34,028 nucleotides of DNA from the NCBI GenBank assembly GCA_044358965.1, contig JBIKNA010000022.1, forward strand, positions 1 to 34,028, written 5' to 3'. Each line of letters starts with the position of its first letter. Positions within the stretch are counted from its first letter, which is position 1. The translations under genes were made by a program, and so were the position numbers. The notes below the pieces were generated by a model, which saw nothing but the letters and a program-made list of their open reading frames with translations, was not told where the DNA came from and ran no database searches. The stretch is from Polyangiaceae bacterium. GTDB taxonomy: Bacteria; Myxococcota_A; Polyangia; Polyangiales; Polyangiaceae. Positions 3,973 through 31,659 of the stretch are shown here, one piece after another.

Positions 3973-4427
3973 GAGGACATCTCAGCGGATTTCTGGCTGT
4001 CGATCCAGATCGTGATGGGACCTGCGTTCTCCGAGAGCACGCGCATATCGGCGCGAAACACCCCAGTGGCCACCCGGAGTTGCGTGCGGGCCTCGGCCAC
4101 GAAGGCCTGGTAGTGGGCTTCGGCCTGCGCAGGTTCCATGGCGCCCTCGAAGCTCGGGCGATTGCCCCGGCGCACGTCGCCAAAAAGTGTGAACTGACTC
4201 ACCACGAGGAGTTCCCCTTTGGTGTCGAGCACGCTCTTGTCGAGCTTACCGGCATCGTTCTCGAAGATGCGCAGGTTCAACACTTTGCGAAGGATGTAGG
4301 TCCGGTCTGCCGCCGTGTCCCCGGTACCGACGCCGAGATAGACGAGTAGCCCCGGGCCAATGGTGCCGACGGTCTCCCCGGCGACCACCACCTGGGCATG
4401 GTTGACCCGCTGCACGACCGCGCGCAT
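3969..4427 (-). CDS. dtd: D-aminoacyl-tRNA deacylase (D-Tyr-tRNA(Tyr) deacylase)
   Basis: 152 aa, MRAVVQRVNHAQVVVAGETVGTIGPGLLVYLGVG...SQFTLFGD...GNRPSF.... The Dtd hallmarks are present: the QRV start, the SQFTL motif and NGPVT-like GPIT. The start was counted from the ORF-track frame. Confidence 0.9.
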   Translation of the reverse strand: MRAVVQRVNHAQVVVAGETVGTIGPGLLVYLGVGTGDTAADRTYILRKVLNLRIFENDAGKLDKSVLDTKGELLVVSQFTLFGDVRRGNRPSFEGAMEPAQAEAHYQAFVAEARTQLRVATGVFRADMRVLSENAGPITIWIDSQKSAEMSS

Positions 4428-4855
4428 CAGCCAACGGCCTCGGGCAGGCGAAGTTCTCGCGCCAGCGCCTTCACGATGCGGAAGTAGTCTTCGCGGCTGT
4501 AGGGCTCGTTCAAGATGTGGAAGTCTTTCCGCGAGAGCCCGACGCAGCCAAAGCAGTATGTGCAGTCTACACACTGTGTGCAGCGAGCAAGGTACTTGCT
4601 TCGCGCGCAGCGCTGGCACTCCACGCAGTGAGAGCAATCGTTGCAGTGGTCGCTGCGAACGCAGTGCGAGCAATTGGTGCAATCTGCACAGTTGCGGCAG
4701 TGGCTGCAGCCAAAGAGCCGCTTGCTGTCGCTGCAAAAGGTGCAAGCAGAGCAGGCCACGCAGCCCGTGCAGGCCACGCAGCCGGTATTCTCTTGGCTCT
4801 GTTCGGCGGCTTTCTGGAGCTTGCCCAGACGCTCTTGGAACTGTCGTGCATCCAT
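4427..4855 (-). CDS. small cysteine-rich protein (22 Cys, in four runs with Cys at every third residue) with a non-Cys C-terminal tail
   Basis: 142 aa, MDARQFQERLGKLQ...CVACTGCVACSACTFC...CSHCRNCADCTNCSHC...CNDCSHCVECQRC...CTQCVDCTYCFGC...FHILNEPYSREDYFRIVKALAREL. Its stop TGA shares the A with the dtd ATG (TGATG), so the two are translationally coupled. GC3 is typical. No recognisable family. Confidence 0.55.
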   Translation of the reverse strand: MDARQFQERLGKLQKAAEQSQENTGCVACTGCVACSACTFCSDSKRLFGCSHCRNCADCTNCSHCVRSDHCNDCSHCVECQRCARSKYLARCTQCVDCTYCFGCVGLSRKDFHILNEPYSREDYFRIVKALARELRLPEAVG

Positions 4856-4988: not shown

Positions 4989-6236
4989 ATGAAAGCTTTT
5001 GCCTCGCTGCTCGCTCTCGCCATCGCCCTCGCCCCCGCCGCTGCGCTCGCCGAGACCGCGGCCCCCGAAGCCGGCATCAAGACCGAGAGCCCCGCGCCCA
5101 AGAAGGACGCGAAGAAGCGCCAGCATTCCAAGACCCAGCCCAGCCGCCGCGCGCACACGCAGCAGCACAAGGACGTTGTGACCGTGTCCACCCGCTCCGT
5201 GCAGAAGGCTCCCAAAGAGAGCAAGAGCCACGGCGCCGACAAGGGCCCCAAGAAAGAGTCCAAGAGCGACAAGAAGAACGACTCGAAGCACCCAGCAGGT
5301 AGCTCAGCCTTCGATCACGATCACGCCGCCGAGCCCAAGGCCCAGCTCGGAAGTCGCGGCGATGGTGTAAAGGACCTGGAGCCCTTGCCCACGCCGGAGG
5401 TCGCCCCCAAGACGGCGCACCCCCGTTCGCATGGCGTCAAGCGCGTGTCCCTGCCGGAGCCCAAGTCCCTGCCGGAGCCCAAGAAGGTTGACGAGCCGAC
5501 GGGCTCGTCTCACGCCGGTGGACCCGTGGCGCCCAAGGCACCTAGCAAAGGCAAGGGAGCCGCCAAGGTGGCCAAGGCCGCCGCCGGTGCCAAGACCGAC
5601 GCGCCGCAGGCCAAGAAGTGTTTCAAAGAGGCCGTGACTTTCTTGCGCGGCGCCGAGGTCGACAGCTTTCCGCTGCAGCAATGTGACGGAACCCTGGCGC
5701 CCCTCGCGGTAGAGCACCTGTCCATCATGTTGCGGCCGCATGGCGTCGACAAGCCCGCAGGCTCCCTGGAGCACCTTGCCCGAGAGCACCAGAAAGATCA
5801 GAACCTGGCGCCCAACTTGAGGAAGATCGATGCGCGTTTGATCACGCGTCTCGGGGAGATCCTCGAGGCCACGCACAAGGGCAAGGCTGCCAAGGTCTCC
5901 ATCGTGTCGGGCTATCGACCGCAGTCCCAAGGCAGCCAGCATTCGCTGGGGCGCGCCATGGACTTCCGCATCGACGGCGTCGACAACGAGCGCATCGTGC
6001 AGGCGTGCAAAGGCATGGCCGACGTTGGCTGTGGGTTCTACCCCAACAGCTCCTTCGTGCACCTCGATGTTCGTGACGCAGGCACGGGACATGTGTCCTG
6101 GATCGACGCGAGCGGCCCCGGCGAGGCGCCCAAATACGTGACCGCCTGGCCGCCCCCCGCCGCCGCGGCAGCGGAGACCCCGGCTTCGGCCATGGTGCCG
6201 GAGGCCGACGCAACGGAAAGCCAGGGCCAGCAATAA
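4989..6236 (+). CDS. secreted DUF882 / peptidase M15-like (YcbK family) protein with a Lys/Pro-rich linker
   Basis: Sec signal peptide (MKAFASLLALAIALAPAAALAET), GGAGG 6 nt before the ATG, and a long K/P/E-rich low-complexity region. The C-terminal domain has SGYRPQSQGSQHSLGRAMDFRIDGV...GFYPNSSFVHLDVRD, matching DUF882/Peptidase_M15_3 (SGYRS..N....S.H..G.A.D...GVGYYPRSGFVHVDVR). Confidence 0.75.
   Translation: MKAFASLLALAIALAPAAALAETAAPEAGIKTESPAPKKDAKKRQHSKTQPSRRAHTQQHKDVVTVSTRSVQKAPKESKSHGADKGPKKESKSDKKNDSKHPAGSSAFDHDHAAEPKAQLGSRGDGVKDLEPLPTPEVAPKTAHPRSHGVKRVSLPEPKSLPEPKKVDEPTGSSHAGGPVAPKAPSKGKGAAKVAKAAAGAKTDAPQAKKCFKEAVTFLRGAEVDSFPLQQCDGTLAPLAVEHLSIMLRPHGVDKPAGSLEHLAREHQKDQNLAPNLRKIDARLITRLGEILEATHKGKAAKVSIVSGYRPQSQGSQHSLGRAMDFRIDGVDNERIVQACKGMADVGCGFYPNSSFVHLDVRDAGTGHVSWIDASGPGEAPKYVTAWPPPAAAAAETPASAMVPEADATESQGQQ
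5447..5482 (+). repeat. 18-bp perfect tandem repeat x2 (tccctgccggagcccaag) inside the DUF882 gene linker
   Basis: Read directly from the sequence. It encodes SLPEPK-SLPEPK. Confidence 0.7.
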
Positions 6237-6337
6237 GAGTTCGCGAGAGGGGTGCGTCTCGCAGCGGTGCGCCTCCCTCGTGGCAGTGACAGCAGTGCAG
6301 CGGTAGTCGGAACAACAACACTTATTCTTAGCTTTTG

Positions 6338-6379
6338 GGGAGCGCGGGAATCATCCTGCGCTCCCTTCGTGCTATTTGG
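6338..6379 (+). terminator. hairpin plus T-rich tail in an AT-rich island; candidate intrinsic terminator for the DUF882 gene or a 5'-UTR structure of the glutaredoxin-like gene
   Basis: gggagcgc-gggaatcatcct-gcgctccc is a perfect 8-bp stem, followed by ttcgtgctatttgg. It is embedded in an unusually AT-rich 80 bp (acaacaacacttattcttagctttt). Confidence 0.35.
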
Positions 6380-6384
6380 ACCCC

Positions 6385-6750
6385 ATGACCAGGCCATTGC
6401 TCCACGCAGACCGTGTTCGCGAACCCGCCCGTGCGGCCGTAGCGGCGTTCCATGCAGATGTCGTCGCCGAGGTCGTCGCCGCCGTGGAGACCGAGCCCGT
6501 GGTCATCGTGGGCATGGCGCAGAACCCCGTGGTCAAGCGCGCACGCAAGCTGCTCACCGAGGCACAGATCCCCTTCAAGTACCTCGAGTACGGCAGCTAC
6601 TTCTCCGACTGGAAAAAGCGCCTTGCCATCAAGCTCTGGGCCGGTTGGCCCACGTTCCCCATGGTGTTCGTCAAGGGCAACCTGGTGGGCGGCGCCGACG
6701 AAACCGAGAAGGCGTTGGCCGACGGGGCCATCAAAGAGCTTCTTGGCTAG
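6385..6750 (+). CDS. glutaredoxin-fold protein (Grx-like, no active-site Cys visible)
   Basis: About 121 aa. The sequence VVIVGMAQNPVVKRARKLLTEAQIPFKYLEY...WPTFPMVFVKGNLVGGADE...LL parallels monothiol Grx (VVLFMKG...C.FS...L...gv.f...nil.d.....WPTiPqlyi.GefvGG.D) but has AQNP in place of CGFS. The stop TAG overlaps the stop of the convergent rhodanese-ThiF gene in the palindrome CTAG. Confidence 0.5.
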   Translation: MTRPLLHADRVREPARAAVAAFHADVVAEVVAAVETEPVVIVGMAQNPVVKRARKLLTEAQIPFKYLEYGSYFSDWKKRLAIKLWAGWPTFPMVFVKGNLVGGADETEKALADGAIKELLG

Positions 6751-7805
6751 GTAGCTGCCAGACGAGCGCCCGCGCCACAGACGGTGCAGGCAGGGTCCCG
6801 CGGCGTCTCGAAGGAACGAAACGTCATCTGCATCAAGTCCACATGCAGCATGCGCCCGACGAGCGCATCTCCGATGCCGAGCAGCAACTTGAGGGCCAAG
6901 GCTGCCTGCATGCTCCCCAGCACCCCCGGAACCGCGCCGAGCACGCCGACCTCGGCGCAGTTGGGCGCATCGGCGGGGCCCGGTCGCCTGGGGAAAAGGC
7001 ACGCGTAGCAAGGTCCCGGCGCGCCAAGGGGCGAGCCGTCGGGCACAAACGACGTGAGCTGCCCCAGGAACCTGTGCACCGACGCATGCACCACGGCGAT
7101 GCCGAGACGAACGCTCGCCGCGCACACGGCATACCGCGTGCTCAGGTTGTCGCTGCCATCGACCACGAGCGTGACGCCGGCGAGCAGGTCTTGGGCATTG
7201 GCCTCGACGAGTCGCACACGCTGGGGGTGCACCTGCACCAAGGGGTTCAGGGCGCGAAGATGCTCGAGGCCGCTGTCGACTTTGGAGCGACCGATGTCGT
7301 GGGTGGTGTGGAGCACCTGGCGATGCAAGTTCGTCTCGTCGACGACATCGGCGTCGATGATCGTGAGGGTGCCCACGCCCGCACCGGCGAGATAGAGCAG
7401 GGCCGGGGAGCCGAGCCCGCCGGCACCGACGACGGCGACGTGCGCCTGGGCGAGGCGCGCCTGCCCGGCGGCGCCGATCTCGGGTAGCGTTTCTTGCCGC
7501 GCGTAGCGCATCCCATCGGCCAATGGGTGCCACGCTTCGTAGCCGGGCAAGAATACCCGCACGCGCTTGCCGCGACCCTGCAACAACCCCTGGGCCTGGA
7601 GCGCCCGGGGGCCGCGCTGGCAATACACGATGATGTCGTCGTCGACACCCAACGGCAGGCCGTCGAGCTTGTCGAGGGGGACATTCTCCGCGCCGGTGAC
7701 GTGTCCCGCGGCGTACTCCTCGGGGCTTCGCACATCGAGCACGCGGACCTTGGCCCCTTGCGAAAGAACGCTGCGAAGGGCGCTCGCGTCGAGCTCCTCG
7801 CTCAC
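6747..7805 (-). CDS. rhodanese-ThiF/MoeB E1-like sulfurtransferase/adenylyltransferase (N-terminal rhodanese, C-terminal ThiF)
   Basis: The N-terminal rhodanese domain is VRVLDVRSPEEYAAGHVTGAENVPL...DIIVYCQRGPRALQAQGLL..VFLPGYEAW, with a CQRGPRA active-site loop. The ThiF domain has MRYARQETLPEIGAAGQARLAQAHVAVVGAGGLGSPALLYLAGAGVG..DADVVDETNLHRQ and C-terminal CYAC...CTVCG zinc motifs. The GTG start overlaps the kinase stop (GTGA), and GGAG lies 9 nt upstream. Confidence 0.85.
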   Translation of the reverse strand: MSEELDASALRSVLSQGAKVRVLDVRSPEEYAAGHVTGAENVPLDKLDGLPLGVDDDIIVYCQRGPRALQAQGLLQGRGKRVRVFLPGYEAWHPLADGMRYARQETLPEIGAAGQARLAQAHVAVVGAGGLGSPALLYLAGAGVGTLTIIDADVVDETNLHRQVLHTTHDIGRSKVDSGLEHLRALNPLVQVHPQRVRLVEANAQDLLAGVTLVVDGSDNLSTRYAVCAASVRLGIAVVHASVHRFLGQLTSFVPDGSPLGAPGPCYACLFPRRPGPADAPNCAEVGVLGAVPGVLGSMQAALALKLLLGIGDALVGRMLHVDLMQMTFRSFETPRDPACTVCGAGARLAAT

Positions 7806-9016
7806 AGCGACAGCTCCACACGAAGCCGCGTCAGAATGGCGCGACCGTCGGCCGGGCGCCCTTCGTCGGGGCCCGTGCACGCTGCAGCCAGTCGGCCAAA
7901 CTTGGCGCGATCATGCCCCGTGGCATCGTGCTCCAGCACATCTTCGAGGACCCGACCAAAGCCGTACACGTCGTCCCGCGGATCGCTCGGTCGCCCGCGC
8001 AGGCGCTCGGGAGACATGTAGCCCATGCTACCGGCCGGGGCGGGCTCCCCCCCGCGGCGCGCGATGCCGAAGTCCGCCAGAAGTGGCGCCCCGGGCGCAG
8101 CCAAGAGCACGTTGGCGGGCTTGACGTCGTGGTGCACCCAGCCCGCTGCGTGCACACGGGCAAGCGCGGCCACGAGACCTGGCACCCAACCCTGCAGCGG
8201 GAACACGCCGTCCAGGGCACCTTGCCGCAATCGATCGCGCAAGGCCCCAAGGGCCGCCCACTCGAGCGCGAGCCAGCCGTGCTCTGGGTCGGCGTCGTAC
8301 ACACGGATGACGCCGTCGCCCGCCAGTGCGCCAGCCACCCGGGCTTCGTGGAGCAGTTGGCCGCGATCGCGATCGGGCTGGTGGTACACCTTGAGCGCGA
8401 CGGTTCTGCGGAGCTCGCGATCGGTGGCTTCGTACACGGCGCCGGCACCGCCGCGGGCCACCTCGCGCAAGATGTCGAAGGGAGCGTCGGGCTCTTTGGC
8501 CGACATGGTGGTGGCCCCGGCGGGAATGACCGCCCGGAACTCCCCAAGCCCCATGGCGGCCCGCCAGCGCCGATGTCGCTCTCGCGCACCGGGAAAATCG
8601 TAGCTGCGCAGCAGAACACGTTCGATGCGGCTGAGCGCAAGGGCCAGGTCGTCACGCTCCGCGGCGATGTCTGCCGCCGCAAAGAGCCCTTGGGCGCTGA
8701 CCAACGCGCTCACGCAGCGTTCGGCCTGCTCGAGATCGCCGCGTTCTACGAGGAGGGCGGCGACCCCGAGCGCAACGGGCTCGGGCAAGGGCCCCGCTTG
8801 GGTCCGGCGCAAGAGATCATCGATGTGTGTGCCGGCCTCGGGCGATGCGCGGAGCTCGGACAACGCCGCGAGCGCGACCTCTGTGTGCCCGCGGGCGCTC
8901 GCGGCGAGTACCCGCTCGGCCACGGATTGCGTCGCGACGGACGGTCCCTCGCTCGGACCTGCGGCCTCGGGCGGTACGGGCGCGGTGCCCTCTTTTTTGC
9001 GCGACCAAGGCCACAT
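7802..9016 (-). CDS. Ser/Thr protein kinase with an N-terminal helical (TPR-like) region and a C-terminal kinase domain
   Basis: Kinase motifs: RGGAGAVYEA (Gly loop), VALKV (VAIK), HHDVKPANVLL (HRDLKPxN), ADFGIA (DFG), YMSPE (APE), DVYGFG (DxWSxG). ATG at 9016. Confidence 0.8.
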   Translation of the reverse strand: MWPWSRKKEGTAPVPPEAAGPSEGPSVATQSVAERVLAASARGHTEVALAALSELRASPEAGTHIDDLLRRTQAGPLPEPVALGVAALLVERGDLEQAERCVSALVSAQGLFAAADIAAERDDLALALSRIERVLLRSYDFPGARERHRRWRAAMGLGEFRAVIPAGATTMSAKEPDAPFDILREVARGGAGAVYEATDRELRRTVALKVYHQPDRDRGQLLHEARVAGALAGDGVIRVYDADPEHGWLALEWAALGALRDRLRQGALDGVFPLQGWVPGLVAALARVHAAGWVHHDVKPANVLLAAPGAPLLADFGIARRGGEPAPAGSMGYMSPERLRGRPSDPRDDVYGFGRVLEDVLEHDATGHDRAKFGRLAAACTGPDEGRPADGRAILTRLRVELSL

Positions 9017-9115
9017 GAGCTGGGTGCCAAGAGACTAGACCAGACTAGGGCACGCCGGTGCAAATGCCCAGGCTGCGCGGGGCTCCCGCGCCTTCGGCGT
9101 GCTAAGTGAACGCCC

Positions 9116-9799
9116 ATGCGTTGGGTCATCACAGGGGCAAATCGTGGCATCGGGCTCGAGTTCGCGCGGCAGCTGGCCCAGCGCGGCGAGATGGTCGAGG
9201 CGGGGGTACGAGACCTGGCCCCGCGGGGGCCCATTGCGGAACTGGCCCTGGGCAGCAACGTCAACATCCACCCGTGTGACGTGGGCAGCGACGAGGGCGT
9301 AGCGGCGTTCGCGCGGTCCATCGGCGACGTGCCCGTGGACGTGCTCATCAACAACGCGGGCGTCATGGGCAAGATGCAAGCCTTCGAGGATCTGGACCTC
9401 GACGATGTGATGCAAACGATCAACGTGAACGCCATCGGTGTCATTCGCGTGACCCGGGCGCTGATGCCGAACATGCTCAAGGGCACCGCCAGGCGCATCG
9501 TGCACATCTCCAGCGGCATGGGCTCCATTGCCGACAACGGCAGCGGCGGAGCCTATGGGTATCGCATGTCCAAAGCCGCTCTCAACATGGCCAACAAGTC
9601 GCTCAGCGTCGACTACAAGGCCCAGGGCTTCACCTGCGTCGTCATGAACCCCGGGTGGGTCCAGACAGACATGGGTGGCCACGGCGCCCCCACCCCCGTC
9701 GAAGACTCGGTCCGCATGATGCTCCGTCGCATCGATACGCTCTCGCCGGCCAACACGGGCGAGTTCGTGGACTACAAGGGTGGCGTGTACCCGTATTGA
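9116..9799 (+). CDS. SDR family short-chain dehydrogenase/reductase (C-factor/CsgA-like type)
   Basis: VITGANRGIGLEFARQL (TGxxxGIG), NNAG, ISSGMGS, YGYRMSKAALNM (YxxxK). 227 aa. Confidence 0.85.
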   Translation: MRWVITGANRGIGLEFARQLAQRGEMVEAGVRDLAPRGPIAELALGSNVNIHPCDVGSDEGVAAFARSIGDVPVDVLINNAGVMGKMQAFEDLDLDDVMQTINVNAIGVIRVTRALMPNMLKGTARRIVHISSGMGSIADNGSGGAYGYRMSKAALNMANKSLSVDYKAQGFTCVVMNPGWVQTDMGGHGAPTPVEDSVRMMLRRIDTLSPANTGEFVDYKGGVYPY

Positions 9800-9908: not shown

Positions 9909-10385
9909 TCACTCTTCGGGTTCGAGCGATTCGACTTCTAGGCTGCTCGCCCTCGTCACCCATGGGTAAAGCTTCCCATGGAGGGCCCAGACCACGGGGC
10001 AGTCGTCGCCCTCCGCGCTTGCCAAATCGAAGCACAGAACACCCCAGCTGTTGGTCTCGGCGAAGATGTCGAGTCCGTAACCGAGATTGCTCCCGCTCTG
10101 GTTGAGCGCCGCAAACGGGACAAGCGTTCCGTCGTCAAGGCGCTCGCCCAGATCCTCTTTCCCCAGAAACACATACTGATCGAGTGAATCGATGTGCGCG
10201 TCTTCGAGCTCGGCGAAGGAGAAAAACGCAGTCTTGATGTCAGGGAAGTCTTCGTCCGACAACGAGGTCTTGTACTTGTACTTGTGCTTTGCGATCAGTT
10301 TTTTGTGCTCCTGCGTGATGGTGAGCCGAGCGTCGAGCAAGGCGTAGTCTTCGAAACGACTGAAGAAGGCTGCGGGGTCGGGCAT
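9909..10385 (-). CDS. SUKH-1 (Smi1/Knr4 family) immunity-like protein
   Basis: MPDPAAFFSRFEDYALLDARL...LVPFAALNQSGSNLGYGLDIF...WGVLCFDLASAEGDDCPVVWALHGK matches the SMI1/KNR4 core (lIPFA.dggGn.lcfDl....g..pVv.wdHE). GAGGA lies upstream; an alternative ATG is at 10391. Confidence 0.6.
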   Translation of the reverse strand: MPDPAAFFSRFEDYALLDARLTITQEHKKLIAKHKYKYKTSLSDEDFPDIKTAFFSFAELEDAHIDSLDQYVFLGKEDLGERLDDGTLVPFAALNQSGSNLGYGLDIFAETNSWGVLCFDLASAEGDDCPVVWALHGKLYPWVTRASSLEVESLEPEE

Positions 10386-10501
10386 GGTCATGGTCCTCGT
10401 GCACAAGGATTGGCCGGTGCTCTGGGATTCTGTGGCGTCACTTGGCACGTGGAGCAGATACCTTCGGCGTCTTTGCGATCATGTGCGCCGAGGGCGTGGC
10501 G
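10181..10501 (-). repeat. direct repeat copy A (~320 bp): upstream region plus the first ~85 codons of the SUKH gene
   Basis: About 90% identical to 11525..11837 (copy B), read by eye. Shared blocks include gccgagggcgtggcg...cttcggcg.ctttgcga.cat, ggtcatggtcctcgtgc.caaggattggccggtgctctgg, and tttttgtgctcctgcgtgatggtgagccgagcgtcgagcaaggcgtag. Copy A has an extra tacttg hexamer (KYKYK vs KYK). Confidence 0.7.
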
Positions 10502-10613
10502 GTCGGGCAAGTGGTGTGGGCGCCAGGCCCGACTGGTGTGGCGATTGGCGTGGACGGACGCCGGTGGACGTGATGCGTGCGTCAGCTCCGTGCCTCCCGG
10601 CGACCCCAGACCG

Positions 10614-11486
10614 CTACGGTGTTTTTGCGCCGAATGTGGCGGTGACCACCGTGCCGGTCGGCTTCATACCGTCCGTGAGCCGCAGGCACGACTGCGTCAT
10701 GTTTCCTTGGAGACTCCACATCGAGGGGTCGCTCCAGCTGTCGAGGCCGTAGACCCGTTTTGCCCTCGCGAGATTCGCGAGCGGCGTAGGTGGATCCGTC
10801 CACCGGAGCGTCTCGACGTCGATGTCAGCCACGTCGATCTTGCTGCTATCACGGTCGGTTGCTACGCGAATCATGCCGCGGACGCTTCCGTCGTCACGGA
10901 CGAGGTCGGAACTGAGAAGGCGACCTTGGAGGCGTGCGCTACCGGTCACCCGACCATCCCACTCGCGCTGGGTGCCTACCTCGACTGTCGAGACGTCGCC
11001 GACGAGTTGCACCACGACGTGAGCGCCGACGCGACGCGCGAGCACGGTACCGCCGTCGTGAACGAGGAGCGGACCACGAAAGAACCGCCAGGCCGCCATC
11101 GACGGCACGTGGTTCGGGTTGAGACCGAAGGCGAATGTCGCGGCCCCAGTCGACGCTTCGCGCGACTCACCCGAGGGGCCGCACGAACGGGTGCCGTTGA
11201 CCCACGGGGAACAAAGGTCGCGGGTCGCGACCTGAAAGCGGCCGAGCGCCCTGTCGGAGCGGTCGCCGAGCATCGCGTTGAGGTCGGCCTGCGTGACCGA
11301 GGGGCCTTCGCACGAGGACGTCCACGCCTCCGATTGCGCGTAGTTCCGGAACTCGGGATTCTTTAGAACGATGTCGCCTTCGGTCGCGGCGGGGCCATCT
11401 GCGCCTGCGGAAGCCGAGCAACCGAGCGCTAGACAAGAGGAGAGAAGGAGTGCCGTCAGGCTTCGCGCCCGCGGGCTCTTGAACAT
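10614..11486 (-). CDS. lipoprotein of unknown function (lipobox LALGC)
   Basis: MFKSPRARSLTALLLSSCLALGC-SASAG... is a type II signal peptide with Cys +1. 290 aa with no recognisable domain. The ORF is open in-frame upstream into duplicated SUKH fragment copy B, and there is no obvious SD before ATG 11486. Confidence 0.5.
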   Translation of the reverse strand: MFKSPRARSLTALLLSSCLALGCSASAGADGPAATEGDIVLKNPEFRNYAQSEAWTSSCEGPSVTQADLNAMLGDRSDRALGRFQVATRDLCSPWVNGTRSCGPSGESREASTGAATFAFGLNPNHVPSMAAWRFFRGPLLVHDGGTVLARRVGAHVVVQLVGDVSTVEVGTQREWDGRVTGSARLQGRLLSSDLVRDDGSVRGMIRVATDRDSSKIDVADIDVETLRWTDPPTPLANLARAKRVYGLDSWSDPSMWSLQGNMTQSCLRLTDGMKPTGTVVTATFGAKTP

Positions 11487-11726
11487 GTAGGAAAATGCGC
11501 AAGGACGCGGCGTACGAGCTTCGAGTGAATCGATGTGTGCGTCTTCGAGCTTGGCGAATGAGAAAAACGCGGTCTTGATGTTTGGGACGACCTCGTCCGA
11601 CAACGAGGTCTTGTACTTGTGCTTCGCGACCAGCTTTTTGTGCTCCTGCGTGATGGTGAGCCGAGCGTCGAGCAAGGCGTAGTTCTCGAAACGACTGAAG
11701 AAGGCAGCGGGGTCGGGCATCGTCAT
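11487..11726 (-). pseudogene. 5' fragment (about 80 codons) of a SUKH/Smi1-Knr4 gene, duplicated and fused in frame to the downstream lipoprotein ORF
   Basis: MTMPDPAAFFSRFENYALLDARLTITQEHKKLVAKHKYKTSLSDEVVPNIKTAFFSFAKLEDAHIDSL is about 90% identical to residues 1-85 of the 9909..10385 protein. Homology then stops abruptly, and the frame continues without a stop into MFKSPRA.... Confidence 0.45.
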
Positions 11727-11837
11727 GGTCCTCGTGCGCAAGGATTGGCCGGTGCTCTGGCAATCTGTGGCGGCACGAGGCACACGGTGCAAACTTGCTT
11801 CGGCGCCTTTGCGACCATCAGCGCCGAGGGCGTGGCG
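11525..11837 (-). repeat. direct repeat copy B (see copy A at 10181..10501)
   Basis: Same evidence as copy A. It includes about 110 bp of the SUKH upstream region (putative promoter/5'UTR) plus the 5' coding fragment. Confidence 0.7.
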
Positions 11838-11888
11838 CTCGCGGAAACTGCGGGAAGGCCTTTCGAGGGCGCGTCGGGGACTAACTAG

Positions 11889-13061
11889 CTAGCGTGCACG
11901 CAGCGCGAAAATTCTGGCCCCGTCCCGTCGGCCGCTGAGCTGATCGCCCACCAGCAATGTGGCACCGTCGGTCCACTCGGTGGCTCCGGCGAAGGCGTGT
12001 CCGCCGGGGCCCAGCCGCAGTTCGAGGAAGCCATCGCCGGCGAGTTCCACACTGAACGCATCTGCGCCCAATTGCAGCGGCCCGAGCGGCACCAGGTACT
12101 CTTGGCCCGAGATGCGCGCGGTGACCGGCGCCCCCGGGCCGGCACCGGCCAACAAGTGCAGCGGGACCTCGCGTCCGAGCATGAGGTCGAGGCTGCCCTC
12201 GAGTGGTACCGGGCCACGCAACAAGGCGCCGTGGAGCAGCGTGCCATTGCGACTGCCGAGATCTTCGACGAGAACCCTGGCGCCGTCGCGGAATACGCGC
12301 AGGTGGTGTCGACTGACGGCGCTGGAGGGGACGGCGATGAGGGCGTCAGTCCGGCCAATGACGAGCTCGTTGCCGAAGGGGACCCGGCAGGGCTTGCCGT
12401 GAAACTCGATGTCGAAGGTGGGGCCTGCGGGCTTTCGGCGCAGCTGCGCGGCGCGCATCTCGTGGGCAGCGCCCACCCCGGAGGTGGCGCAAAGCGCGTC
12501 GAGTTTCTCGAGGGCTTCGCGGCGTCGGCCCGATGCGAGCAAGACCTCGATGTCCCCGAGCTCCTGGGTTCGCGCGCGTTCTTGGCGCTCGGCGAACTGC
12601 TCGGAGGAGAGCAGATGTTCGAGTTCGTCGACCTCGCCCGCGGCGGCCAGGGCCCGCGCTTGGCCTTCGCGATCTTTGGCCCGGGCATAGGCTGCGGCAG
12701 CCTCTTGGTGCTCGCCCACGGCCTCGAGGTCCCGGGCCGCGTCGAGCAAATCGCGCTGCGCAACGGCGGAAATGGCCTGGTCGCCAACGAGTGCGATCAT
12801 GAGCTGCGCCCTTCGCGTGCGGGCCACCCGCCACGCGGCCGATCCCTCGGGGGCGATGCCCGCTGCCTGGGTAAAGTGCGCGAGGCGCGCTCGGGCCTCG
12901 GGCTCGGCTTCGCCCCGCAAGACCATCACGCGGCTCGCCTCTTCGGGGGCGCCGGCGGCCACCCAGAGTTCGATGGCCTTGGCAAAGTCGCCGCGCAGTT
13001 CGGCCGACTGCGCCTGCGCCTTCACCCGACCTTTGCCAAAGAGGTTATCGAACAAGCCCAC
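11889..13061 (-). CDS. FHA domain-containing protein with an N-terminal helical/TPR-like region
   Basis: FHA core LVIGRTDALIAVPSSAVSRHHLRVFRDGARVLVEDLGSRNGTLLHG (GR...D....d..vSR.Ha.......v.DlgS.NGT.vN). GTG start per the ORF-track frame. Divergent from pilB with about 205 bp between them. Confidence 0.75.
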   Translation of the reverse strand: MGLFDNLFGKGRVKAQAQSAELRGDFAKAIELWVAAGAPEEASRVMVLRGEAEPEARARLAHFTQAAGIAPEGSAAWRVARTRRAQLMIALVGDQAISAVAQRDLLDAARDLEAVGEHQEAAAAYARAKDREGQARALAAAGEVDELEHLLSSEQFAERQERARTQELGDIEVLLASGRRREALEKLDALCATSGVGAAHEMRAAQLRRKPAGPTFDIEFHGKPCRVPFGNELVIGRTDALIAVPSSAVSRHHLRVFRDGARVLVEDLGSRNGTLLHGALLRGPVPLEGSLDLMLGREVPLHLLAGAGPGAPVTARISGQEYLVPLGPLQLGADAFSVELAGDGFLELRLGPGGHAFAGATEWTDGATLLVGDQLSGRRDGARIFALRAR

Positions 13062-13267: not shown

Positions 13268-14968
<1,701 letters not shown>

Positions 14969-15060: not shown

Positions 15061-16185
<1,125 letters not shown>

Positions 16186-16200: not shown

Positions 16201-18975
16201 CTACGGCTTCTTTCGCGTCTTGCCGAGGCCCGCAGCCTCGGTGGCGCGGGATACGTCGGTGTTGGCCATACCGCTTTGCGACAGCGCTCGCGCGAGGTCT
16301 CCCGCGCGCTTGTCTTTGATGGCCAGTAGCGCGCTGGCGGCAGCAGATCGGTGCAAGAGGGAGCTTGTGGCCGTGGGCAAGGGCTCTTGGGCCAGCTTGC
16401 TGCGAGCTTCGGCCTCGCGACCGCTGCGCACGAGGGCCAGGGCAAGCAAGAAGCGTCCGGCGGGTCCGGCGCGCTGCGGGCGCTCGGATAGGCGCGCGAT
16501 GACCTCGTCGGGTTTGCCCTGCTGCAAGGAGAGCAGCGCCCGTTCGGCAACGACACGTTCGGTGCTGATCTGCGCAGCCTCGAGCTCACCGAGCAACGCC
16601 GCCGCATCGACCAGGCGGCCTTGGTAGCGGGCCAGCCGGGCCAGCCGCAGTTTGCGCAGCGGTCGCGCAGGCTCTTGGGTCCACTGCCGCGCAAGCTCCG
16701 TGGCGGCGTCGAGCTCCCCGCTGTCGAGCAGCGAGTCCATCCGCACCAGATCTGTCCATGGTCCGGTGATGAGCCGCAACTGAAGCGCGCGCTCGGGGCC
16801 AAGGACCTTGCCCGTCAGCACCTCGTTGGACAGCACGACGCCCAGGAACAGGGGCGCGTTGCGTGCGCCCTCGGGCAGCGCCGCAGCGCTCTTGGCCGTG
16901 GCAGCGGGGTCCATCCGTTCGTAGCCAAGCGCGACGCGCGTAATGGTTGCGTCGAGAATGGTGCCATCGGTGAGTGTGGCCACGGCAAGCTCTGCGTCCG
17001 CCAGGCGTCCGTCTTGAAGCGCCACCCGGGCTGCCAGCAGTCGGCCCGGCGTGTAGACCGGTGAGAGTGACAGCGCCCGCTGGCTGGCTTCGCTGCCCAA
17101 TGCGTCGTCGCCGGCATCGAGGGCCAACATGCCGATCCACGTGGCCATTTGTGCCGATTCGGCCACGGCGAGGCCCTTCTTGAGCGCGGCGCGAGCTGCA
17201 AGTCCGTCCCGCGCATCGAGCGCACGTGCAGCGAACAGGCCGTGGGGGATCGCCCGCAAGGCCGCGGGCAGGGCGCCCAGTTGCTCCGCAGCCTCGGCCT
17301 CTTTGGGGGCTTCGCCGCGGGCCGGGTCTTTGGCCCAAGCAAAGGCCAGGAGCGCGACCCCCTCGGTGCGCTCGGGGGCGCGTTGCCGTAGGTTGCGCGC
17401 AAGCTCCATGGCTTTCTTGGGGTCTCCGTCTTGCGCGAGGCACCGCAAGAGCCCGGTCTCCGCGGCCATCAACTCCGGAGACAGTCGCATGGCGGCGGCG
17501 TAGCGCTCTTGCGCACGCGCGTCGCCGGCGCGTTCGAGCACGGCGCCGGCGACCAGCTGGAAGTAGGCGTCCTGGCCTGCGCTGGCATCCCACTGGGCGA
17601 CGGCGTCGAGGGCGCCGGCGAGATCTTCGCTGAAGAGGTAGCTCGCCGTCAGCGCAAAGGCGGTGTCCTTGGCGGGCATGCCGAGCTCTCGGGCCCGTCG
17701 GATGCCCGATTCGAGGCTCGCGTCGGACGTCCCGAGCAACAGCCCCTTCAGCACCCGGGCGCGCATCCAGCTTTGCGCGGCGTGCACCGACGCGGGCTCC
17801 GCGGCGATGGCGCGGCGCAAGTCTCGCTCGACGTCGGCCATGGCCTGAGGCTCGGCGGCGGCGAGCTTAGCGTCGACGGTGGCCAATGTTTGTTCGGCCA
17901 CACCGTGGGCCTTGTGCCTCTGATCGCGCAGGTAGGCGAAGCCGCCCGCGGCGGCGCCGGCGAACAAAACGGAGATGACGCTCGCGGCGATGACGCGACC
18001 GCGTTGCCGGGGCTTGGGCGCCGGGGTCCAGGCGTAGTCTTCTTTTGCGTTGGGCTCGAACAAGCCCGATGTTTCCAGCGAACGAAGGAGCGCATCGGGC
18101 GACAACGGCTTTTCGGGCTCCGTGACGACGATGCTGGGCGGATCGAAGGGCCCGCTGGGAACGGGGGCTGCCGTTGGCAGGGGAGGCGGGGGCCGCGAAC
18201 GGGGCAAGGGCGGGGGCGGACGCGACGTGGGCTTGATGCTGCGGGCCTCGGCCGTTGGGGCCGCCGAACGAACCTTGGCGGACGAAGGCGTGTAGTCGCG
18301 ATCGAGGCCTGCCCCGGCGAGCGAAAAGGATGGGTCTCGACTGGCGGCGCGGGCCAGGGTCTCGAGGCTCTCGTCGTGGCTGAACTGCGCGCCCGGCAGG
18401 GCAGTGCGCGCCAGGGTGATGGCGTCGTCCACCTCTTTGCGACTCTTGATTTCGGTGTCGACGTCCGACAGCGACAACTGCCGCGCTCGGATGCGTACCC
18501 GGGGCCCGAAGCGCACGGTGAAGGCGGCGTCGAACTGCGCAGCCACACCCTCGGGGCCGACGGTTCGAAACAGCGGGCCGAGGGCTCGGGCGCGCTCGTG
18601 CAGAAATGTGGTCTCCTCGTCCCGACCGCCAAAGGCCACAGCGCGTTCCAGCACCTTCTCGGCGCGGTCGGCGTCGCCACGACGCAGCAGCACCTCGCCC
18701 AGCCATCGGTACACCACGGCGTCTCGGGGGGCCACGCGCCCCGCCGCCACGAACGCAGCCTGCGCGTCGTCGATGCGTCCGGCCTCGAGGTACATGCGCC
18801 CGGCGGCGATGAGCGCCGGTGCGCTCTGCGTGTGCCGCTGCAAGACGAAGTTCCCGACCTCGTTCATGAGATCGTCGCGATCGACGCCGCGAAGTGCGTT
18901 GCAGAGGGCGAGCGAAGTTGCAGCGTCGGGGGTGCGCTGCCACTCTTCGAAGAGTCGCTCGATGGAATCACTCAT
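16201..18975 (-). CDS. large TPR-repeat membrane protein (cytoplasmic N-domain, single TM, Pro-rich linker, about 560-aa TPR-like C-domain)
   Basis: 924 aa with an ATG start. The TM segment is RVIAASVISVLFAGAAAGGFAYL, and Ala/Leu-rich TPR-like helical repeats run throughout. Convergent with pilT; the stop codons are 15 nt apart and lie within a small inverted repeat gtagcg...cgctac. Confidence 0.7.
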   Translation of the reverse strand: MSDSIERLFEEWQRTPDAATSLALCNALRGVDRDDLMNEVGNFVLQRHTQSAPALIAAGRMYLEAGRIDDAQAAFVAAGRVAPRDAVVYRWLGEVLLRRGDADRAEKVLERAVAFGGRDEETTFLHERARALGPLFRTVGPEGVAAQFDAAFTVRFGPRVRIRARQLSLSDVDTEIKSRKEVDDAITLARTALPGAQFSHDESLETLARAASRDPSFSLAGAGLDRDYTPSSAKVRSAAPTAEARSIKPTSRPPPPLPRSRPPPPLPTAAPVPSGPFDPPSIVVTEPEKPLSPDALLRSLETSGLFEPNAKEDYAWTPAPKPRQRGRVIAASVISVLFAGAAAGGFAYLRDQRHKAHGVAEQTLATVDAKLAAAEPQAMADVERDLRRAIAAEPASVHAAQSWMRARVLKGLLLGTSDASLESGIRRARELGMPAKDTAFALTASYLFSEDLAGALDAVAQWDASAGQDAYFQLVAGAVLERAGDARAQERYAAAMRLSPELMAAETGLLRCLAQDGDPKKAMELARNLRQRAPERTEGVALLAFAWAKDPARGEAPKEAEAAEQLGALPAALRAIPHGLFAARALDARDGLAARAALKKGLAVAESAQMATWIGMLALDAGDDALGSEASQRALSLSPVYTPGRLLAARVALQDGRLADAELAVATLTDGTILDATITRVALGYERMDPAATAKSAAALPEGARNAPLFLGVVLSNEVLTGKVLGPERALQLRLITGPWTDLVRMDSLLDSGELDAATELARQWTQEPARPLRKLRLARLARYQGRLVDAAALLGELEAAQISTERVVAERALLSLQQGKPDEVIARLSERPQRAGPAGRFLLALALVRSGREAEARSKLAQEPLPTATSSLLHRSAAASALLAIKDKRAGDLARALSQSGMANTDVSRATEAAGLGKTRKKP

Positions 18976-27250: not shown

Positions 27251-28218
27251 TTGTCGGCGGACCCGCGCACTGCGCGCTTTTGCGCCTGCTTCTTGGCAGC
27301 TTCTTGCTGCACCGTCGGAGCATTCTCGAGCTGATCGAGCATGCGATCGTCTTGCGAACGCGGCGGCGGCTTGGCGCCGGCGTCTTGCTCGGGCGGCGGC
27401 GGACCCGCGTCGGGCTTCTTGTTGTCGTCGTTGCCGCTGTCTTTGCCCGCGTCGGGCTTCTTGTTGTCGTCGTTGCCGCCGTCTTTGTTGTCGCCGCTGT
27501 CGCTGCCGCTGTCCTTGTTGTCGCCGCCGTCGCCGCCGCCGTCGTTGCTGGCGTCTTGCGATGCGTCCTGTGACGCGTCTTGGCCTGCGTCTTTTTTGTC
27601 GTCCTCGCGCCGGAGGGCGATGGCGCGGTTCCATGCCGCATCGAGCCCCGTGTCGTCGCCTGCATCCGGGGCTCCGGGAATCAAGGCGAGCGCCCGGTCG
27701 TAGGAGCTGACGGCGTCTTTGTAGCGCTTGTCTAGAAACTGCAGGTTGCCTTCGAGGTAGTAGGCCCGGGCCCGTACGGGCAACGGGGTCTGCGCGTCCG
27801 CGGCGAAGGCGCGGACGATGCGCAGGGCGCACTCGATCTCGCCCTTTCGGGCGCCGTTGTCCGCCTCGTTGGTCGGGCCGTGCCCGGTGGTGTCTTTGCC
27901 GCCAGACTCTTCGTCGCCAAAGCGCTGCCCGTAGCGTTCGGCCAGCCCAAACAAGGCCAGGCCCAGGTCGAAGCTGCCCTGGGGTCGCGCGCGTAGTCGC
28001 TCGGGGGTGCCGATGTTGCCCTCGGCGCAGGCGCCGGTTTGTAGGTATTCTGCAAGCAACTTGGCGGCGGCGTCGACGTCGCCGGCATCGAGGCTGGCGA
28101 TGGCGCGGTTGACCTCGGGAGCTTCGCGTTCGAAGGGCTTCTTTGGGTCCCAGGAGCAGGCGTACAGGGCCGCGGAGGCCAGCGCGAGCGACAGGAGGGT
28201 GATACCGCGGCGGCTCAT
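27247..28218 (-). CDS. batC: BatC-like TPR lipoprotein with an acidic/Lys-rich low-complexity tail
   Basis: MSRRGITLLSLALASAALYAC-SWD has a lipobox LYAC. TPR-like repeats are followed by D/G/N/K-rich repeats. ATGA overlap with the batB stop. Confidence 0.7.
   Translation of the reverse strand: MSRRGITLLSLALASAALYACSWDPKKPFEREAPEVNRAIASLDAGDVDAAAKLLAEYLQTGACAEGNIGTPERLRARPQGSFDLGLALFGLAERYGQRFGDEESGGKDTTGHGPTNEADNGARKGEIECALRIVRAFAADAQTPLPVRARAYYLEGNLQFLDKRYKDAVSSYDRALALIPGAPDAGDDTGLDAAWNRAIALRREDDKKDAGQDASQDASQDASNDGGGDGGDNKDSGSDSGDNKDGGNDDNKKPDAGKDSGNDDNKKPDAGPPPPEQDAGAKPPPRSQDDRMLDQLENAPTVQQEAAKKQAQKRAVRGSADK
27404..27487 (-). repeat. 42-bp tandem repeat x2 inside batC, followed by about four 12-bp units (27550..27597)
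   Basis: cccgcgtcgggcttcttgttgtcgtcgttgccgc(t/c)gtctttg appears twice head-to-tail and encodes KDxGNDDNKKPDAG x2. The nearby gcgtc(t/c)tg(c/t)ga(t/c) units encode (QDAS)n. Confidence 0.7.
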
Positions 28219-30580: not shown

Positions 30581-31655
30581 GGGCGCCTCTCCGGGGCGGG
30601 CATGGTGGCCCGCACGATGTGCTCGCCCTGGTCGAGCAGCGCCAGGCACGCCTCTTTCGTGGCTGCGGCATTGGCAAACTTGACGAGATCACATTCGTGC
30701 AAGAACGCGATGATTTCGCTCTGGGGGATGCCAAAGACCGCCGCGGAGCGCAGCGCCAAGATGATCTCGTCGGTGGTGGACTCGAGGCCGTCGAAGTCGA
30801 AGCGCGCCCCGAGGTAGCGTCGCAGCGTGTCGCTGACGCGGTCGACGAACTCGGCGTAGCGGTCCGTGTCGAGCAAGCCTGCGTGGCGAATCTCGTGGAG
30901 GTCCTCGAGGGCGATCTCCCACGGGGGCCGCGGCGGCGGCGGCGGCGGCAGGGGCTTTTCGCGCTTGCGCCACTGGTACAGGGCATAAGCGCAGGCACCG
31001 CCAAAGAAGAGGCCCACGAGCACCCATGCCATGGCTTGTTTCAGTGCGGTCCATTCTTCGCGCTGGGGCAGGGGCGCCGCGTTGCCATGGGGCTTTGGCT
31101 CCGGGGTGCCCGCGATGGGGTCCTCGACGACGATGCTGTGCAGCTGCGTGCAAAGTACACTGGTGTCGCCGTTGGCCCGGGCGATGGTGATGGGCAAGGG
31201 GGGGAGCACCAGGGCGTTGCGCCCGGGCTTTTCCGGCAGTGGCACCACCGGCAGTTCGAGCACGGTCTTGGCGCTGGCGTCACCGGGCTTGGCCTCGGCG
31301 GTGAGCCTGGGTTTGCCCGGGCCTTGGGCGTCGGGTAGCGCAAAACCCGCTGCGCGAAGGTCTTTGGCGGCGGCGCTGTCGCGATCGGGGGTGACGCCGT
31401 GGGGCAAGACGGATTCGCCAGGTTTATGGTGCACCGTGATGCGCAGCACCGCTTGGTGACCGCTGGTGCCGCGGGAAGGGAACTGCTCGTCCACCCGGGG
31501 GCGTTCGGCGCCTTTGGCCAGGCGCGGCACGCAGCTGCCCATCATGCTGGCCAACTGCGCGCTGCTGAGCGGCGGCGCGGGTTGGCCGCTCGCCAGCCCG
31601 GGCACCATGGCTGTGCCGAGCGCCGCAGCAACCACGAGCATGTGCCCAAGCGTCT

Positions 31656-31659
<4 letters not shown>
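30577..31659 (-). CDS. DUF4381-like membrane protein with an extra N-terminal signal peptide and a periplasmic domain of about 230 aa
   Basis: The GTG start overlaps the DUF58 stop (GTGA); an alternative ATG is at 31641. A signal peptide (LVVAAALGTAMVPGLASG) and an internal TM (WVLVGLFFGGACAYALYQW) are followed by RKREKPLPPPPPPRPPWEIALEDLHEI..., matching the TM + PwE.AL.eL core of DUF4381 proteins found in MoxR/VWA operons. Confidence 0.55.

What the first reader, a model, noticed from the sequence alone, without database searches (positions are those of the whole stretch)
6385..9016. Ser/Thr kinase translationally coupled to a rhodanese-ThiF E1-like enzyme with inverted domain order; a Grx-like gene overlaps its 3' end
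The kinase gene (unusually, kinase domain at the C-terminus and a helical/TPR-like N-terminus) ends in TGA overlapping the GTG start of the next gene (GTGA). This strongly suggests an obligate two-gene operon.

The second gene encodes an E1-like adenylyltransferase whose rhodanese domain, with its catalytic Cys loop CQRGPRA, is N-terminal to the ThiF/MoeB domain. The well-known MoeZ/MOCS3/CysO-activating enzymes have the opposite order (ThiF then rhodanese). The C-terminal Zn motifs (CYAC...CTVCG) are intact.

No ThiS/MoaD/CysO-like small GG-terminated sulfur-carrier gene is visible nearby. Instead, the convergent downstream gene encodes a glutaredoxin-fold protein lacking the CGFS/CPYC cysteines, and its stop codon shares the palindrome CTAG with the E1 gene's stop.

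This could be a kinase-regulated sulfur-relay or protein-conjugation (ubiquitin-like) module with an unconventional partner.
Basis: partly seen in the sequence, partly recalled or inferred. Interest (0 to 1): 0.6.

Follow-up and report, generated by a model that had tools for sequence, protein, structure and literature searches.

The report
Kinase next to divergent MoeB-type enzyme
A serine/threonine kinase gene overlaps by 4 bases a trimmed, fast-evolving copy of a known rhodanese–ThiF "MoeB" sulfur-carrier-activating enzyme; the pairing is inherited from Labilithrix-like myxobacteria but is not obligatory, and the glutaredoxin-like neighbour appears unrelated.

Summary
All three genes, the GTGA stop/start overlap, the shared CTAG stops, the rhodanese-then-ThiF order, the intact motifs and the absence of a nearby ThiS/MoaD gene were confirmed.

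- **Domain order.** Rhodanese-N/ThiF-C is not unusual. 49 of the 120 best homologues have it, and NCBI curates it as NF006444/PRK08762 "MoeB". Some members sit in MobA–MoeA molybdenum-cofactor operons.
- **Kinase–E1 pair.** It is conserved. Of 64 evaluable loci encoding kinase orthologues, 50 have the E1 directly downstream and 7 more have it within 3 kb, including loci that share nothing else with the window. It belongs to an FHA–kinase–E1 block typical of Labilithrix-like Polyangiales.
- **Not obligate.** In the window's own kinase subclade the E1 was lost, displaced or strongly diverged.
- **The window's E1 is the oddity.** It is 43.5% identical to its positional orthologues, which are 82% identical to one another. 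It is shorter and scores below the family cut-off. It is still under purifying selection (dN/dS 0.2) with all catalytic residues present.
- **Grx-like gene.** It belongs to a large stand-alone cysteine-free family. None of 80 such loci has a ThiF gene within 10 kb, so it is a chance neighbour.

Interest is modest.

The parts
7802..9016 (-). Hanks-type Ser/Thr kinase, 404 aa, of a small Polyangiales-type family
   Evidence: Pkinase 86 bits. K209, D297, N302 and D315-F-G are invariant in 31 orthologues. The fold is PknB-like.
8555..8923 (-). Kinase N-terminal eight-helix (TPR-like) domain, residues 32-154
   Evidence: AF2 model, block pLDDT 81-95. Only 85 representative clusters in 1.84 billion proteins match it; most non-fragmentary hits are about 400 aa long with the domain at the N-terminus. 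Weak TPR Pfam hits occur in some orthologues.
7805..8479 (-). Kinase catalytic domain, residues 180-404
7802..7805 (-). GTGA: the kinase stop codon overlaps the E1 start codon
   Evidence: ATGA at the same place in L004 and L005. GGAG lies 8 nt upstream of the GTG.
6747..7805 (-). Rhodanese-ThiF E1-like adenylyltransferase/sulfurtransferase, 352 aa; a divergent, trimmed member of the PRK08762-type MoeB family
   Evidence: Pfam. NF006444 362.6 bits against a cut-off of 449. AF2 pLDDT 91. 43.5% identity to positional orthologues that are 82% identical to each other.
7527..7805 (-). Rhodanese domain, residues 1-93; catalytic loop CQRGPRA at 7602-7622
   Evidence: C62 is invariant in alignment A3. 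dN/dS 0.23-0.30.
6750..7517 (-). ThiF/MoeB adenylation domain, residues 97-352; Zn motifs CYAC (6999-7010) and CTVC (6777-6788)
   Evidence: Alignment to Uba4, ThiF and MoeB structures. Invariant columns.
6385..6750 (+). Cysteine-free glutaredoxin-fold protein, 121 aa; convergent neighbour, judged not to be part of the module
6747..6750 (.). CTAG shared by the two convergent stop codons
   Evidence: In L004 and L005 the two genes overlap by 20 nt instead.
11889..13061 (-). FHA-domain protein, the ancestral upstream partner of the kinase; separated from it here by three inserted genes
   Evidence: FHA Pfam hit. Directly upstream of the kinase in L005, L172, L174-177. Adjacent in 35 of 59 evaluable loci.

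Best explanation
The locus is a derived version of an ancestral FHA -> Ser/Thr kinase -> MoeB-type E1 gene string found in Labilithrix-like Polyangiales (Myxococcota).

**The E1.** It is a rhodanese-ThiF enzyme of the kind NCBI curates as PRK08762 'MoeB'. By homology, its ThiF domain should adenylate the C-terminal glycine of a MoaD/ThiS-type sulfur-carrier protein encoded elsewhere in the genome. The persulfide on rhodanese Cys62 should then convert that adenylate to a thiocarboxylate, for molybdenum-cofactor or another thio-cofactor synthesis.

**In this lineage.** The E1 has been trimmed (352 aa against about 397) and has evolved unusually fast, but it remains intact and under purifying selection. 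Its start codon has become fused to the kinase stop codon. The two genes are therefore almost certainly co-transcribed and translationally coupled here.

**The kinase.** It is an active-looking PknB-type kinase with a family-specific helical N-domain. Its more natural signalling partner is the FHA protein. A direct kinase-to-E1 regulatory link is possible but not shown. It cannot be obligatory, because close relatives keep the kinase after losing the E1 at this site.

**The Grx-like gene.** It is an unrelated stand-alone gene that happens to lie between the E1 and the M15 peptidase in this clade.

**Shown:** gene structures, domains, motifs, conservation statistics.
**Inferred:** the enzymatic reaction, co-transcription, and any regulatory link.
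For: Domain and motif identity. Confident E1 model.

Family membership of the orthologues:
- Kinase-linked E1s elsewhere score 578 bits on NF006444 (cut-off 449), like the Corallococcus and Moco-operon members.
- A MoaD/ThiS-Rhd-ThiF fusion exists in the same family, P0113.

Kinase-to-E1 adjacency: 50 of 64 loci immediately adjacent, 57 of 64 within 3 kb. This compares with E1-to-M15 at 20 of 36 and FHA-to-kinase at 35 of 59. The pair persists where all other neighbours differ. The block is present in a named Labilithrix sp. MAG and in L172.

E1-specific divergence: 43.5% against 82%. PilB-like, kinase, FHA and Dtd show no such gap.

Selection: dN/dS is 0.20 for the E1, 0.10 for the kinase and 0.11 for the Grx-like gene.

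E1 loss or displacement in the window's kinase subclade.

Grx-like gene unlinked.
Against: - No sulfur-carrier, Moco or thiamin gene lies in the 34-kb window, so the E1's substrate and pathway are inferred only from family membership.
- The window's E1 falls below the family's curated cut-off. It may have changed function.
- Background synteny in this lineage is high. M15 and Dtd are also often retained, so adjacency alone cannot separate an operon kept by selection from gene order kept by descent.
- The kinase-to-E1 adjacency is somewhat more conserved than the neighbouring pairs. This leaves room for a real functional link that this explanation plays down.
Confidence: 0.6

Rival explanations
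1. Kinase-regulated sulfur relay. The kinase senses a signal through its helical N-domain, possibly with the FHA protein as a phospho-dependent adaptor. It then phosphorylates the E1 or its carrier protein to switch sulfur-carrier activation on or off. The gene pair is kept together by selection for this.
For: - The E1 is directly downstream of the kinase in 50 of 64 loci and within 3 kb in 57 of 64.
- The pair is retained in L154, L119 and L138, where no other neighbour is shared.
- It is retained in 11 of 14 loci that lack the FHA gene upstream.
- The adjacency is higher than for the unrelated E1-M15 pair, 20 of 36.
- The kinase has all catalytic residues.
- There is a 4-nt overlap in the window clade.
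Against: - The E1 is absent next to the kinase in 7 of 64 loci, and specifically in the window's nearest relatives.
- Seven loci have a gene on the opposite strand inserted between the two.
- Members of the same E1 family in Corallococcus and in Moco operons have no kinase.
- No kinase-ThiF fusion appears among the 240 homologues listed.
- No paper in the searched library describes such regulation.
Confidence: 0.25
2. Ubiquitin-like protein conjugation or an unconventional sulfur relay in which the cysteine-free Grx-fold protein is the E1's partner or target.
For: The E1 and Grx-like genes are adjacent and overlapping in the window, L004 and L005. Frataxin-rhodanese-Grx fusions are known in bacteria (PMC2679010).
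Against: - The genes are convergent, so they are on separate transcripts.
- None of 80 loci of the Grx-like family has ThiF within 10 kb.
- None of 80 kinase/E1 loci has the Grx-like gene.
- The family has no conserved neighbour at all.
- The protein has no cysteine and does not end in Gly-Gly.
- There is no E2, JAB or beta-grasp gene in the window.
Confidence: 0.03
3. The window's E1 is a decaying relic. It became redundant in this subclade, where relatives lost it, and it no longer has a specific function.
For: - An E1-specific drop to 43.5% identity, against 82% among orthologues.
- Loss of the N-terminal helix, the linker and the C-terminal tail.
- A score below the NF006444 cut-off.
- Repeated loss in sister lineages.
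- dN/dS twice that of its neighbours.
Against: - dN/dS of 0.18-0.30 still indicates purifying selection across about 30% amino-acid divergence.
- Every catalytic and Zn residue is retained in all three clade members.
- The AF2 model is confident, pLDDT 91.
- The reading frame and the start overlap are conserved.
Confidence: 0.1

Closest known systems
NCBIfam NF006444 / PRK08762 'molybdopterin-synthase adenylyltransferase MoeB' (N-terminal rhodanese + ThiF domain, about 387 aa)
   Same: Same two domains in the same order. The best-scoring family is matched over both domains (residues 3-348 to profile positions 15-372). All adenylation, Zn and rhodanese catalytic residues are present. The positional orthologues next to the same kinase are full members at 578 bits.
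   Different: The window protein scores 362.6 bits, below the 449 cut-off. It is about 45 aa shorter: it lacks the N-terminal helix, a rhodanese loop, the Rhd-ThiF linker and the C-terminal 'YIDYEGFC' tail. It is not in a Moco operon, unlike the members.
MoeZ / MOCS3 / Uba4 / CysO- and QbsE-activating enzymes (ThiF domain followed by a C-terminal rhodanese)
   Same: Same two catalytic modules and presumably the same chemistry: adenylation of a beta-grasp carrier, then thiocarboxylation through a rhodanese persulfide. The Uba4 adenylation domain is the best match among solved structures, E 1.6e-48.
   Different: Opposite domain order. The curated MoeZ model NF005902 scores 279 bits against a cut-off of 647.
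PknB-type Hanks Ser/Thr kinases paired with FHA-domain proteins
   Same: PknB-like catalytic fold and residues. An FHA gene lies directly upstream in most relatives.
   Different: The kinase domain is C-terminal and short, about 225 aa. A family-specific eight-helix domain is N-terminal. No transmembrane or PASTA segment was detected by Pfam, NCBIfam or in the AF2 model. The family is tiny, 85 representative clusters.
Class II (CGFS, Grx4/Grx5-type) monothiol glutaredoxins
   Same: Grx fold, with the WPTFP cis-Pro motif and the GG-D motif.
   Different: There is no cysteine. A shortened 'GMAQNP' loop replaces the CGFS/CxxC site. TIGR00365 scores 37.7 bits against a cut-off of 117. The protein therefore cannot ligate an Fe-S cluster or do thiol-disulfide chemistry in the known way.

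Membership tests
NF006444/PRK08762 rhodanese-ThiF MoeB | Single chain with an N-terminal rhodanese domain followed by a ThiF/MoeB adenylation domain | tested here: met
   Pfam Rhodanese then ThiF at residues 41-118 and 126-366 of the 377-aa ORF. The profile matches across both domains.
NF006444/PRK08762 rhodanese-ThiF MoeB | Whole-protein score at or above the curated cut-off (449 bits) | tested here: not met
   362.6 bits. Clade relative P0002 scores 370 and L096 scores 357. The canonical kinase-linked E1 scores 578, Corallococcus 597, and the Moco-operon member 558.
NF006444/PRK08762 rhodanese-ThiF MoeB | ATP-binding GxGxxG, Arg finger (RYxRQ), Mg-binding Asp (DGxDN), crossover-loop Cys, two CxxC Zn motifs | tested here: met
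   Alignments to Uba4, ThiF and MoeB structures and to family members.
NF006444/PRK08762 rhodanese-ThiF MoeB | Rhodanese catalytic Cys in a CxxGxR loop | tested here: met
   C62-QRGPRA. C62, G65 and R67 are invariant in A3.
NF006444/PRK08762 rhodanese-ThiF MoeB | Cognate MoaD/ThiS-type carrier or Moco biosynthesis genes in the neighbourhood | tested here: not met
   None in the 34-kb window. The rest of the genome could not be searched.
NF006444/PRK08762 rhodanese-ThiF MoeB | Adenylation and thiocarboxylation of MoaD | not testable with these tools
   Requires biochemistry.
MoeZ/MOCS3/Uba4-type E1 | ThiF domain N-terminal, rhodanese C-terminal | tested here: not met
   The order is reversed. 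NF005902 scores 279 bits against 647.
Hanks-type (eukaryotic-like) Ser/Thr protein kinase | Pkinase domain above the Pfam cut-off with catalytic Lys, HxD Asp, Asn and DFG | tested here: met
   86.2 bits against 31.7. K209, H295-H-D297, N302 and D315-F-G317 are invariant. Foldseek top hits are PknB.
Hanks-type (eukaryotic-like) Ser/Thr protein kinase | Phosphotransfer activity and identified substrates | not testable with these tools
   Requires an in-vitro kinase assay or phosphoproteomics.
Class II monothiol glutaredoxin (Grx4 family, TIGR00365) | CGFS-type active-site cysteine | tested here: not met
   No Cys in the protein. 107 of 120 homologues have none. 'AQNP' aligns with CSYC of human Grx2.
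Class II monothiol glutaredoxin (Grx4 family, TIGR00365) | Score at or above the curated cut-off | tested here: not met
   37.7 bits against 117.1. Pfam Glutaredoxin just passes at 24.8 against 22.9.
Bacterial ubiquitin-like conjugation systems (E1 with Ubl, E2 and/or JAB peptidase) | Ubl (beta-grasp, Gly-Gly end), E2 or JAB gene linked to the E1 | tested here: not met
   None among the window's ORFs, nor in the genes inserted between kinase and E1 in relatives.

The most novel reading that the evidence does not exclude
The conserved kinase -> rhodanese-ThiF pair of Labilithrix-like Polyangiales would reflect direct phospho-regulation of a sulfur-carrier-activating E1 by a Hanks-type kinase, with the FHA protein as adaptor. 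I found no such control point for Moco or thio-cofactor synthesis described in bacteria. In the window's clade, the tightly coupled, trimmed E1 would have been re-purposed for a new kinase-dependent role.
Probability: 0.2. Interest if true: 0.6.

Novelty: new member of a known kind. Interest (0 to 1): 0.3.

Why it matters
If the kinase-E1 link is functional, it would tie eukaryotic-like Ser/Thr signalling to sulfur-carrier (MoaD/ThiS-type) activation in myxobacteria. That would be a testable regulatory node, reminiscent of E1 control in eukaryotes.

As it stands, the value is mainly corrective.
- The 'inverted' E1 architecture is a catalogued MoeB type.
- The Grx-like gene is a bystander.
- The unusual feature is the lineage-specific acceleration and trimming of an otherwise highly conserved enzyme, alongside repeated loss in sister lineages.

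The cysteine-free Grx-fold family is a separate, uncharacterised and widespread family that may merit its own study.

Tried and rejected
- **ThiS/MoaD-like ORFs.** I searched the window for ORFs ending in Gly-Gly. The only hit is a 57-codon ORF with non-coding composition.
- **Genes inserted between kinase and E1.** I checked seven relatives in case the inserted gene was a sulfur carrier. The inserts are Cys-rich secreted proteins on the opposite strand, or a small Zn-ribbon protein.
- **Conserved neighbour of the Cys-less Grx family.** I examined 56 loci and found none. The largest neighbour cluster spans 7 loci, in Archangium-type genomes.
- **Kinase C-terminus as E1 substrate.** I asked whether the kinase might end in Gly-Gly. 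Only 21 of 120 orthologues do, and the window's does not. Rejected.
- **Promoter and terminator scan of 6100-9300.** No sigma-70-like promoter, and terminator-like sites at chance level. Uninformative for a 68% G+C myxobacterium.
- **Literature searches for a kinase-MoeB/ThiF link.** Nothing found. One query was malformed.
- **Labilithrix luteola kinase (P0291).** It could not be located in the contig index.
- **Horizontal replacement of the E1.** The NJ trees are rough distance trees. The E1 tree cannot tell extreme acceleration from xenologous replacement, so that question stays open.
Full report
**1. What is in the sequence**

*Kinase.* It occupies 7802-9016 (-) and encodes 404 aa, with a Pkinase domain at residues 182-362 (86 bits). 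An AlphaFold2 model built on 31 orthologues has a mean pLDDT of 84.6. It shows eight helices at residues 32-154, a disordered linker at 155-178, and a kinase domain at 180-404 whose best structural matches are M. tuberculosis PknB. The catalytic Lys209, His-His-Asp297, Asn302 and Asp315-Phe-Gly are invariant across the orthologues.

*Overlap and E1 start.* The kinase TGA (7804-7802) overlaps a GTG (7805-7803), giving GTGA. Four observations support this GTG as the E1 start:
- Public gene calls give the same 352-aa product.
- Orthologues L004 and L005 have ATGA at the homologous position.
- A GGAG lies 8 nt upstream.
- The rhodanese-coding part is under purifying selection, dN/dS 0.23-0.30.

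*E1.* It has an N-terminal rhodanese domain and a C-terminal ThiF domain. The following are all present:
- rhodanese loop C62-QRGPRA
- Arg finger
- GAGGLG
- DGSDN
- crossover-loop Cys
- both CxxC Zn motifs

The AF2 model is confident for both domains, pLDDT 91.

*Grx-like gene.* It lies at 6385-6750 (+) and has no cysteine. Its stop codon and the E1's stop codon share CTAG at 6747-6750.

*Sulfur carrier.* The 34-kb window has no plausible ORF ending in Gly-Gly, and no ThiS/MoaD, Moco or thiamin gene.

**2. The domain order is not unusual**

Among the 120 best homologues of the E1, 49 carry the rhodanese N-terminal to ThiF and 71 carry it C-terminal. NCBI curates the N-terminal form as an equivalog family, NF006444/PRK08762 'molybdopterin-synthase adenylyltransferase MoeB', 387 positions. 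It is the window protein's best match over both domains, at 362.6 bits, below the 449-bit cut-off.

Full members include:
- a Corallococcus protein with no kinase nearby;
- proteins at the end of MobA-MoeA Moco operons;
- a MoaD/ThiS-Rhd-ThiF fusion, P0113.

This supports the usual sulfur-carrier chemistry for the family. The classic survey of prokaryotic E1-like systems discusses only C-terminal rhodanese fusions (PMC1779556). That may explain why the order looked novel.

**3. The kinase-E1 pair is conserved, but not obligate**

*The kinase family.* It is small and well conserved. The best homologues are 52-65% identical over the full length. The N-domain matches only 85 representative clusters among 1.84 billion proteins. 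Named members are Labilithrix (Polyangiales).

*Adjacency census.* I fetched 80 metagenome loci encoding orthologues of the kinase; 64 could be evaluated.

| State of the rhodanese-ThiF gene | Loci |
|---|---|
| Directly downstream, same strand | 50 |
| Downstream with one or two inserted genes | 7 |
| Absent | 7 |

The intergenic gap is usually 7-170 nt. The 4-nt overlap is confined to the window's clade; one other locus (L155) has a 1-nt stop/start overlap.

*Wider block.* The pair sits in a larger syntenic block:
- TPR protein
- PilT-like and PilB-like ATPases (-)
- FHA, kinase, E1 (+)
- M15 peptidase (-)
- Cys-rich protein, Dtd

*Is the adjacency more than background?* Background synteny is high: E1-M15 adjacency is 20 of 36 and FHA-kinase is 35 of 59. 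Adjacency alone is therefore weak evidence. However, kinase-E1 is the most retained link. It persists in 11 of 14 loci that lack the FHA gene upstream. It also persists in L154, L119 and L138, which share nothing else with the window.

*Against obligate coupling.* In the kinase tree, the window falls in a subclade where the arrangement has broken down:
- L174, L175/176, L092 and L110 have FHA-kinase followed directly by M15, with no E1.
- L173 has a canonical E1 7 kb away.
- L096 and the window clade have strongly divergent E1s.

**4. The window's E1 is the real oddity**

| Protein | Window vs others (% identity) | Others vs others (% identity) |
|---|---|---|
| PilB-like | 84 | 85 |
| Kinase | 56 | 59 |
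| FHA | 43 | 48 |
| Dtd | 61 | 67 |
| E1 | 43.5 | 82 |

The window E1 (with P0002 and P0003), and L096 on its own, sit on long branches. L096 is as far from the window clade (42-47% identity) as from the canonical E1s. Like the window E1, P0002 and L096 score below the NF006444 cut-off, whereas a canonical kinase-linked E1 scores 578 bits. The window-clade proteins (window, P0002, P0003) lack the N-terminal helix, a rhodanese loop, the inter-domain linker and the C-terminal tail.

The gene is not decaying. Within the clade, dN/dS is 0.20, against 0.10 for the kinase, 0.12 for FHA and 0.11-0.17 for the Grx-like gene. All catalytic residues are kept. Extreme acceleration and replacement by a foreign copy cannot be told apart with the distance trees available.

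**5. The Grx-like gene is a bystander**

Its family is large: 4,214 hits, with the best 120 at 59-90% identity and 107 of these without any Cys. 'AQNP' takes the place of CxxC/CGFS. The family occurs in Myxococcota, Bdellovibrionota and Burkholderiales.

- In 80 species-representative loci, none has a ThiF gene within 10 kb.
- No neighbour is conserved.
- None of the 80 kinase loci contains it.
- Only the window, L004 and L005 have it beside the E1, in convergent orientation.

**6. Mechanism and verdict**

The most likely reading is an inherited FHA-kinase-MoeB string in which the E1 performs standard adenylation and thiocarboxylation of a MoaD/ThiS-type carrier encoded elsewhere. In this clade the E1 is trimmed, fast-evolving and translationally coupled to the kinase.

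Direct phospho-regulation of the E1 is plausible; I put it at about 0.2-0.25. It is unproven, and no paper in the searched library describes it.

The conjugation and Grx-partner ideas are not supported.

The finding is a divergent new member of a known enzyme family in a conserved but non-obligate neighbourhood. Interest is modest.

Noticed in passing
window 6385-6750 (+); loci L012-L091: There is a large, well-conserved family of glutaredoxin-fold proteins with no cysteine. 'GMAQNP' replaces the CGFS/CxxC loop, while the WPTFP and GG motifs are kept. It is 52-67% identical across Myxococcota, Bdellovibrionota and Burkholderiales, is annotated simply as 'glutaredoxin', and has no conserved gene neighbour. 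Its function is unknown.
   Followed up: partly
window 4427-4855 (-): A conserved 142-aa cysteine-rich (repeated CxxC) gene lies directly upstream of dtd. It is absent from the public gene calls for this contig. It is 88% identical to a called gene in L004 and 46-48% to those in L174 and L177.
   Followed up: partly
window 9909-10385 and 10614-11720 (-); repeats 10180-10510 / 11521-11846: Two paralogous hypothetical genes share about 330 nt of 86-91% identical 5' coding and upstream DNA. Neither has a Pfam hit. Together with the SDR gene (9116-9799) they separate the FHA gene from the kinase. In relatives these two are adjacent.
   Followed up: partly
window 13268-14968 (+), 15061-16185 (+), 16201-18975 (-): A PilB-like (MshEN + T2SSE) ATPase, a PilT-like ATPase and a 924-aa TPR protein lie divergent from the FHA gene. 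The PilB-like ATPase is 83-87% and the PilT-like about 73-82% identical across the lineage, and both are nearly always next to FHA-kinase. They are plausible alternative targets of the FHA/kinase pair.
   Followed up: partly
P0113 (homologue of the E1): A natural fusion of a MoaD/ThiS-like domain (ending ...AGG) to a rhodanese-ThiF E1. It scores 612 bits on NF006444.
   Followed up: partly
kinase orthologues P0241-P0360; E1s of loci L092-L172: 21 of 120 kinase orthologues end in Gly-Gly (...VEILGG), and several canonical E1s end in ...PGG. The window's kinase ends ...ELSL. This is probably compositional, but it is curious beside an E1.
   Followed up: partly
L033 9498-9734: In an alphaproteobacterial MAG, a rhodanese-like ORF lies directly upstream of the cysteine-free Grx-like gene. 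It is the only such case among 80 loci.
   Followed up: no
window 28215-33586 (-): A MoxR-type AAA ATPase (32600-33586) sits with two VWA-domain proteins (28215-29396 and 29393-30649), a typical MoxR-VWA cluster.
   Followed up: no
L104, L107/L108, L111 (between kinase and E1): Homologous Cys-rich secreted or lipoprotein-like genes of about 320-400 aa are inserted on the opposite strand between the kinase and the E1. L104 has two tandem copies.
   Followed up: no
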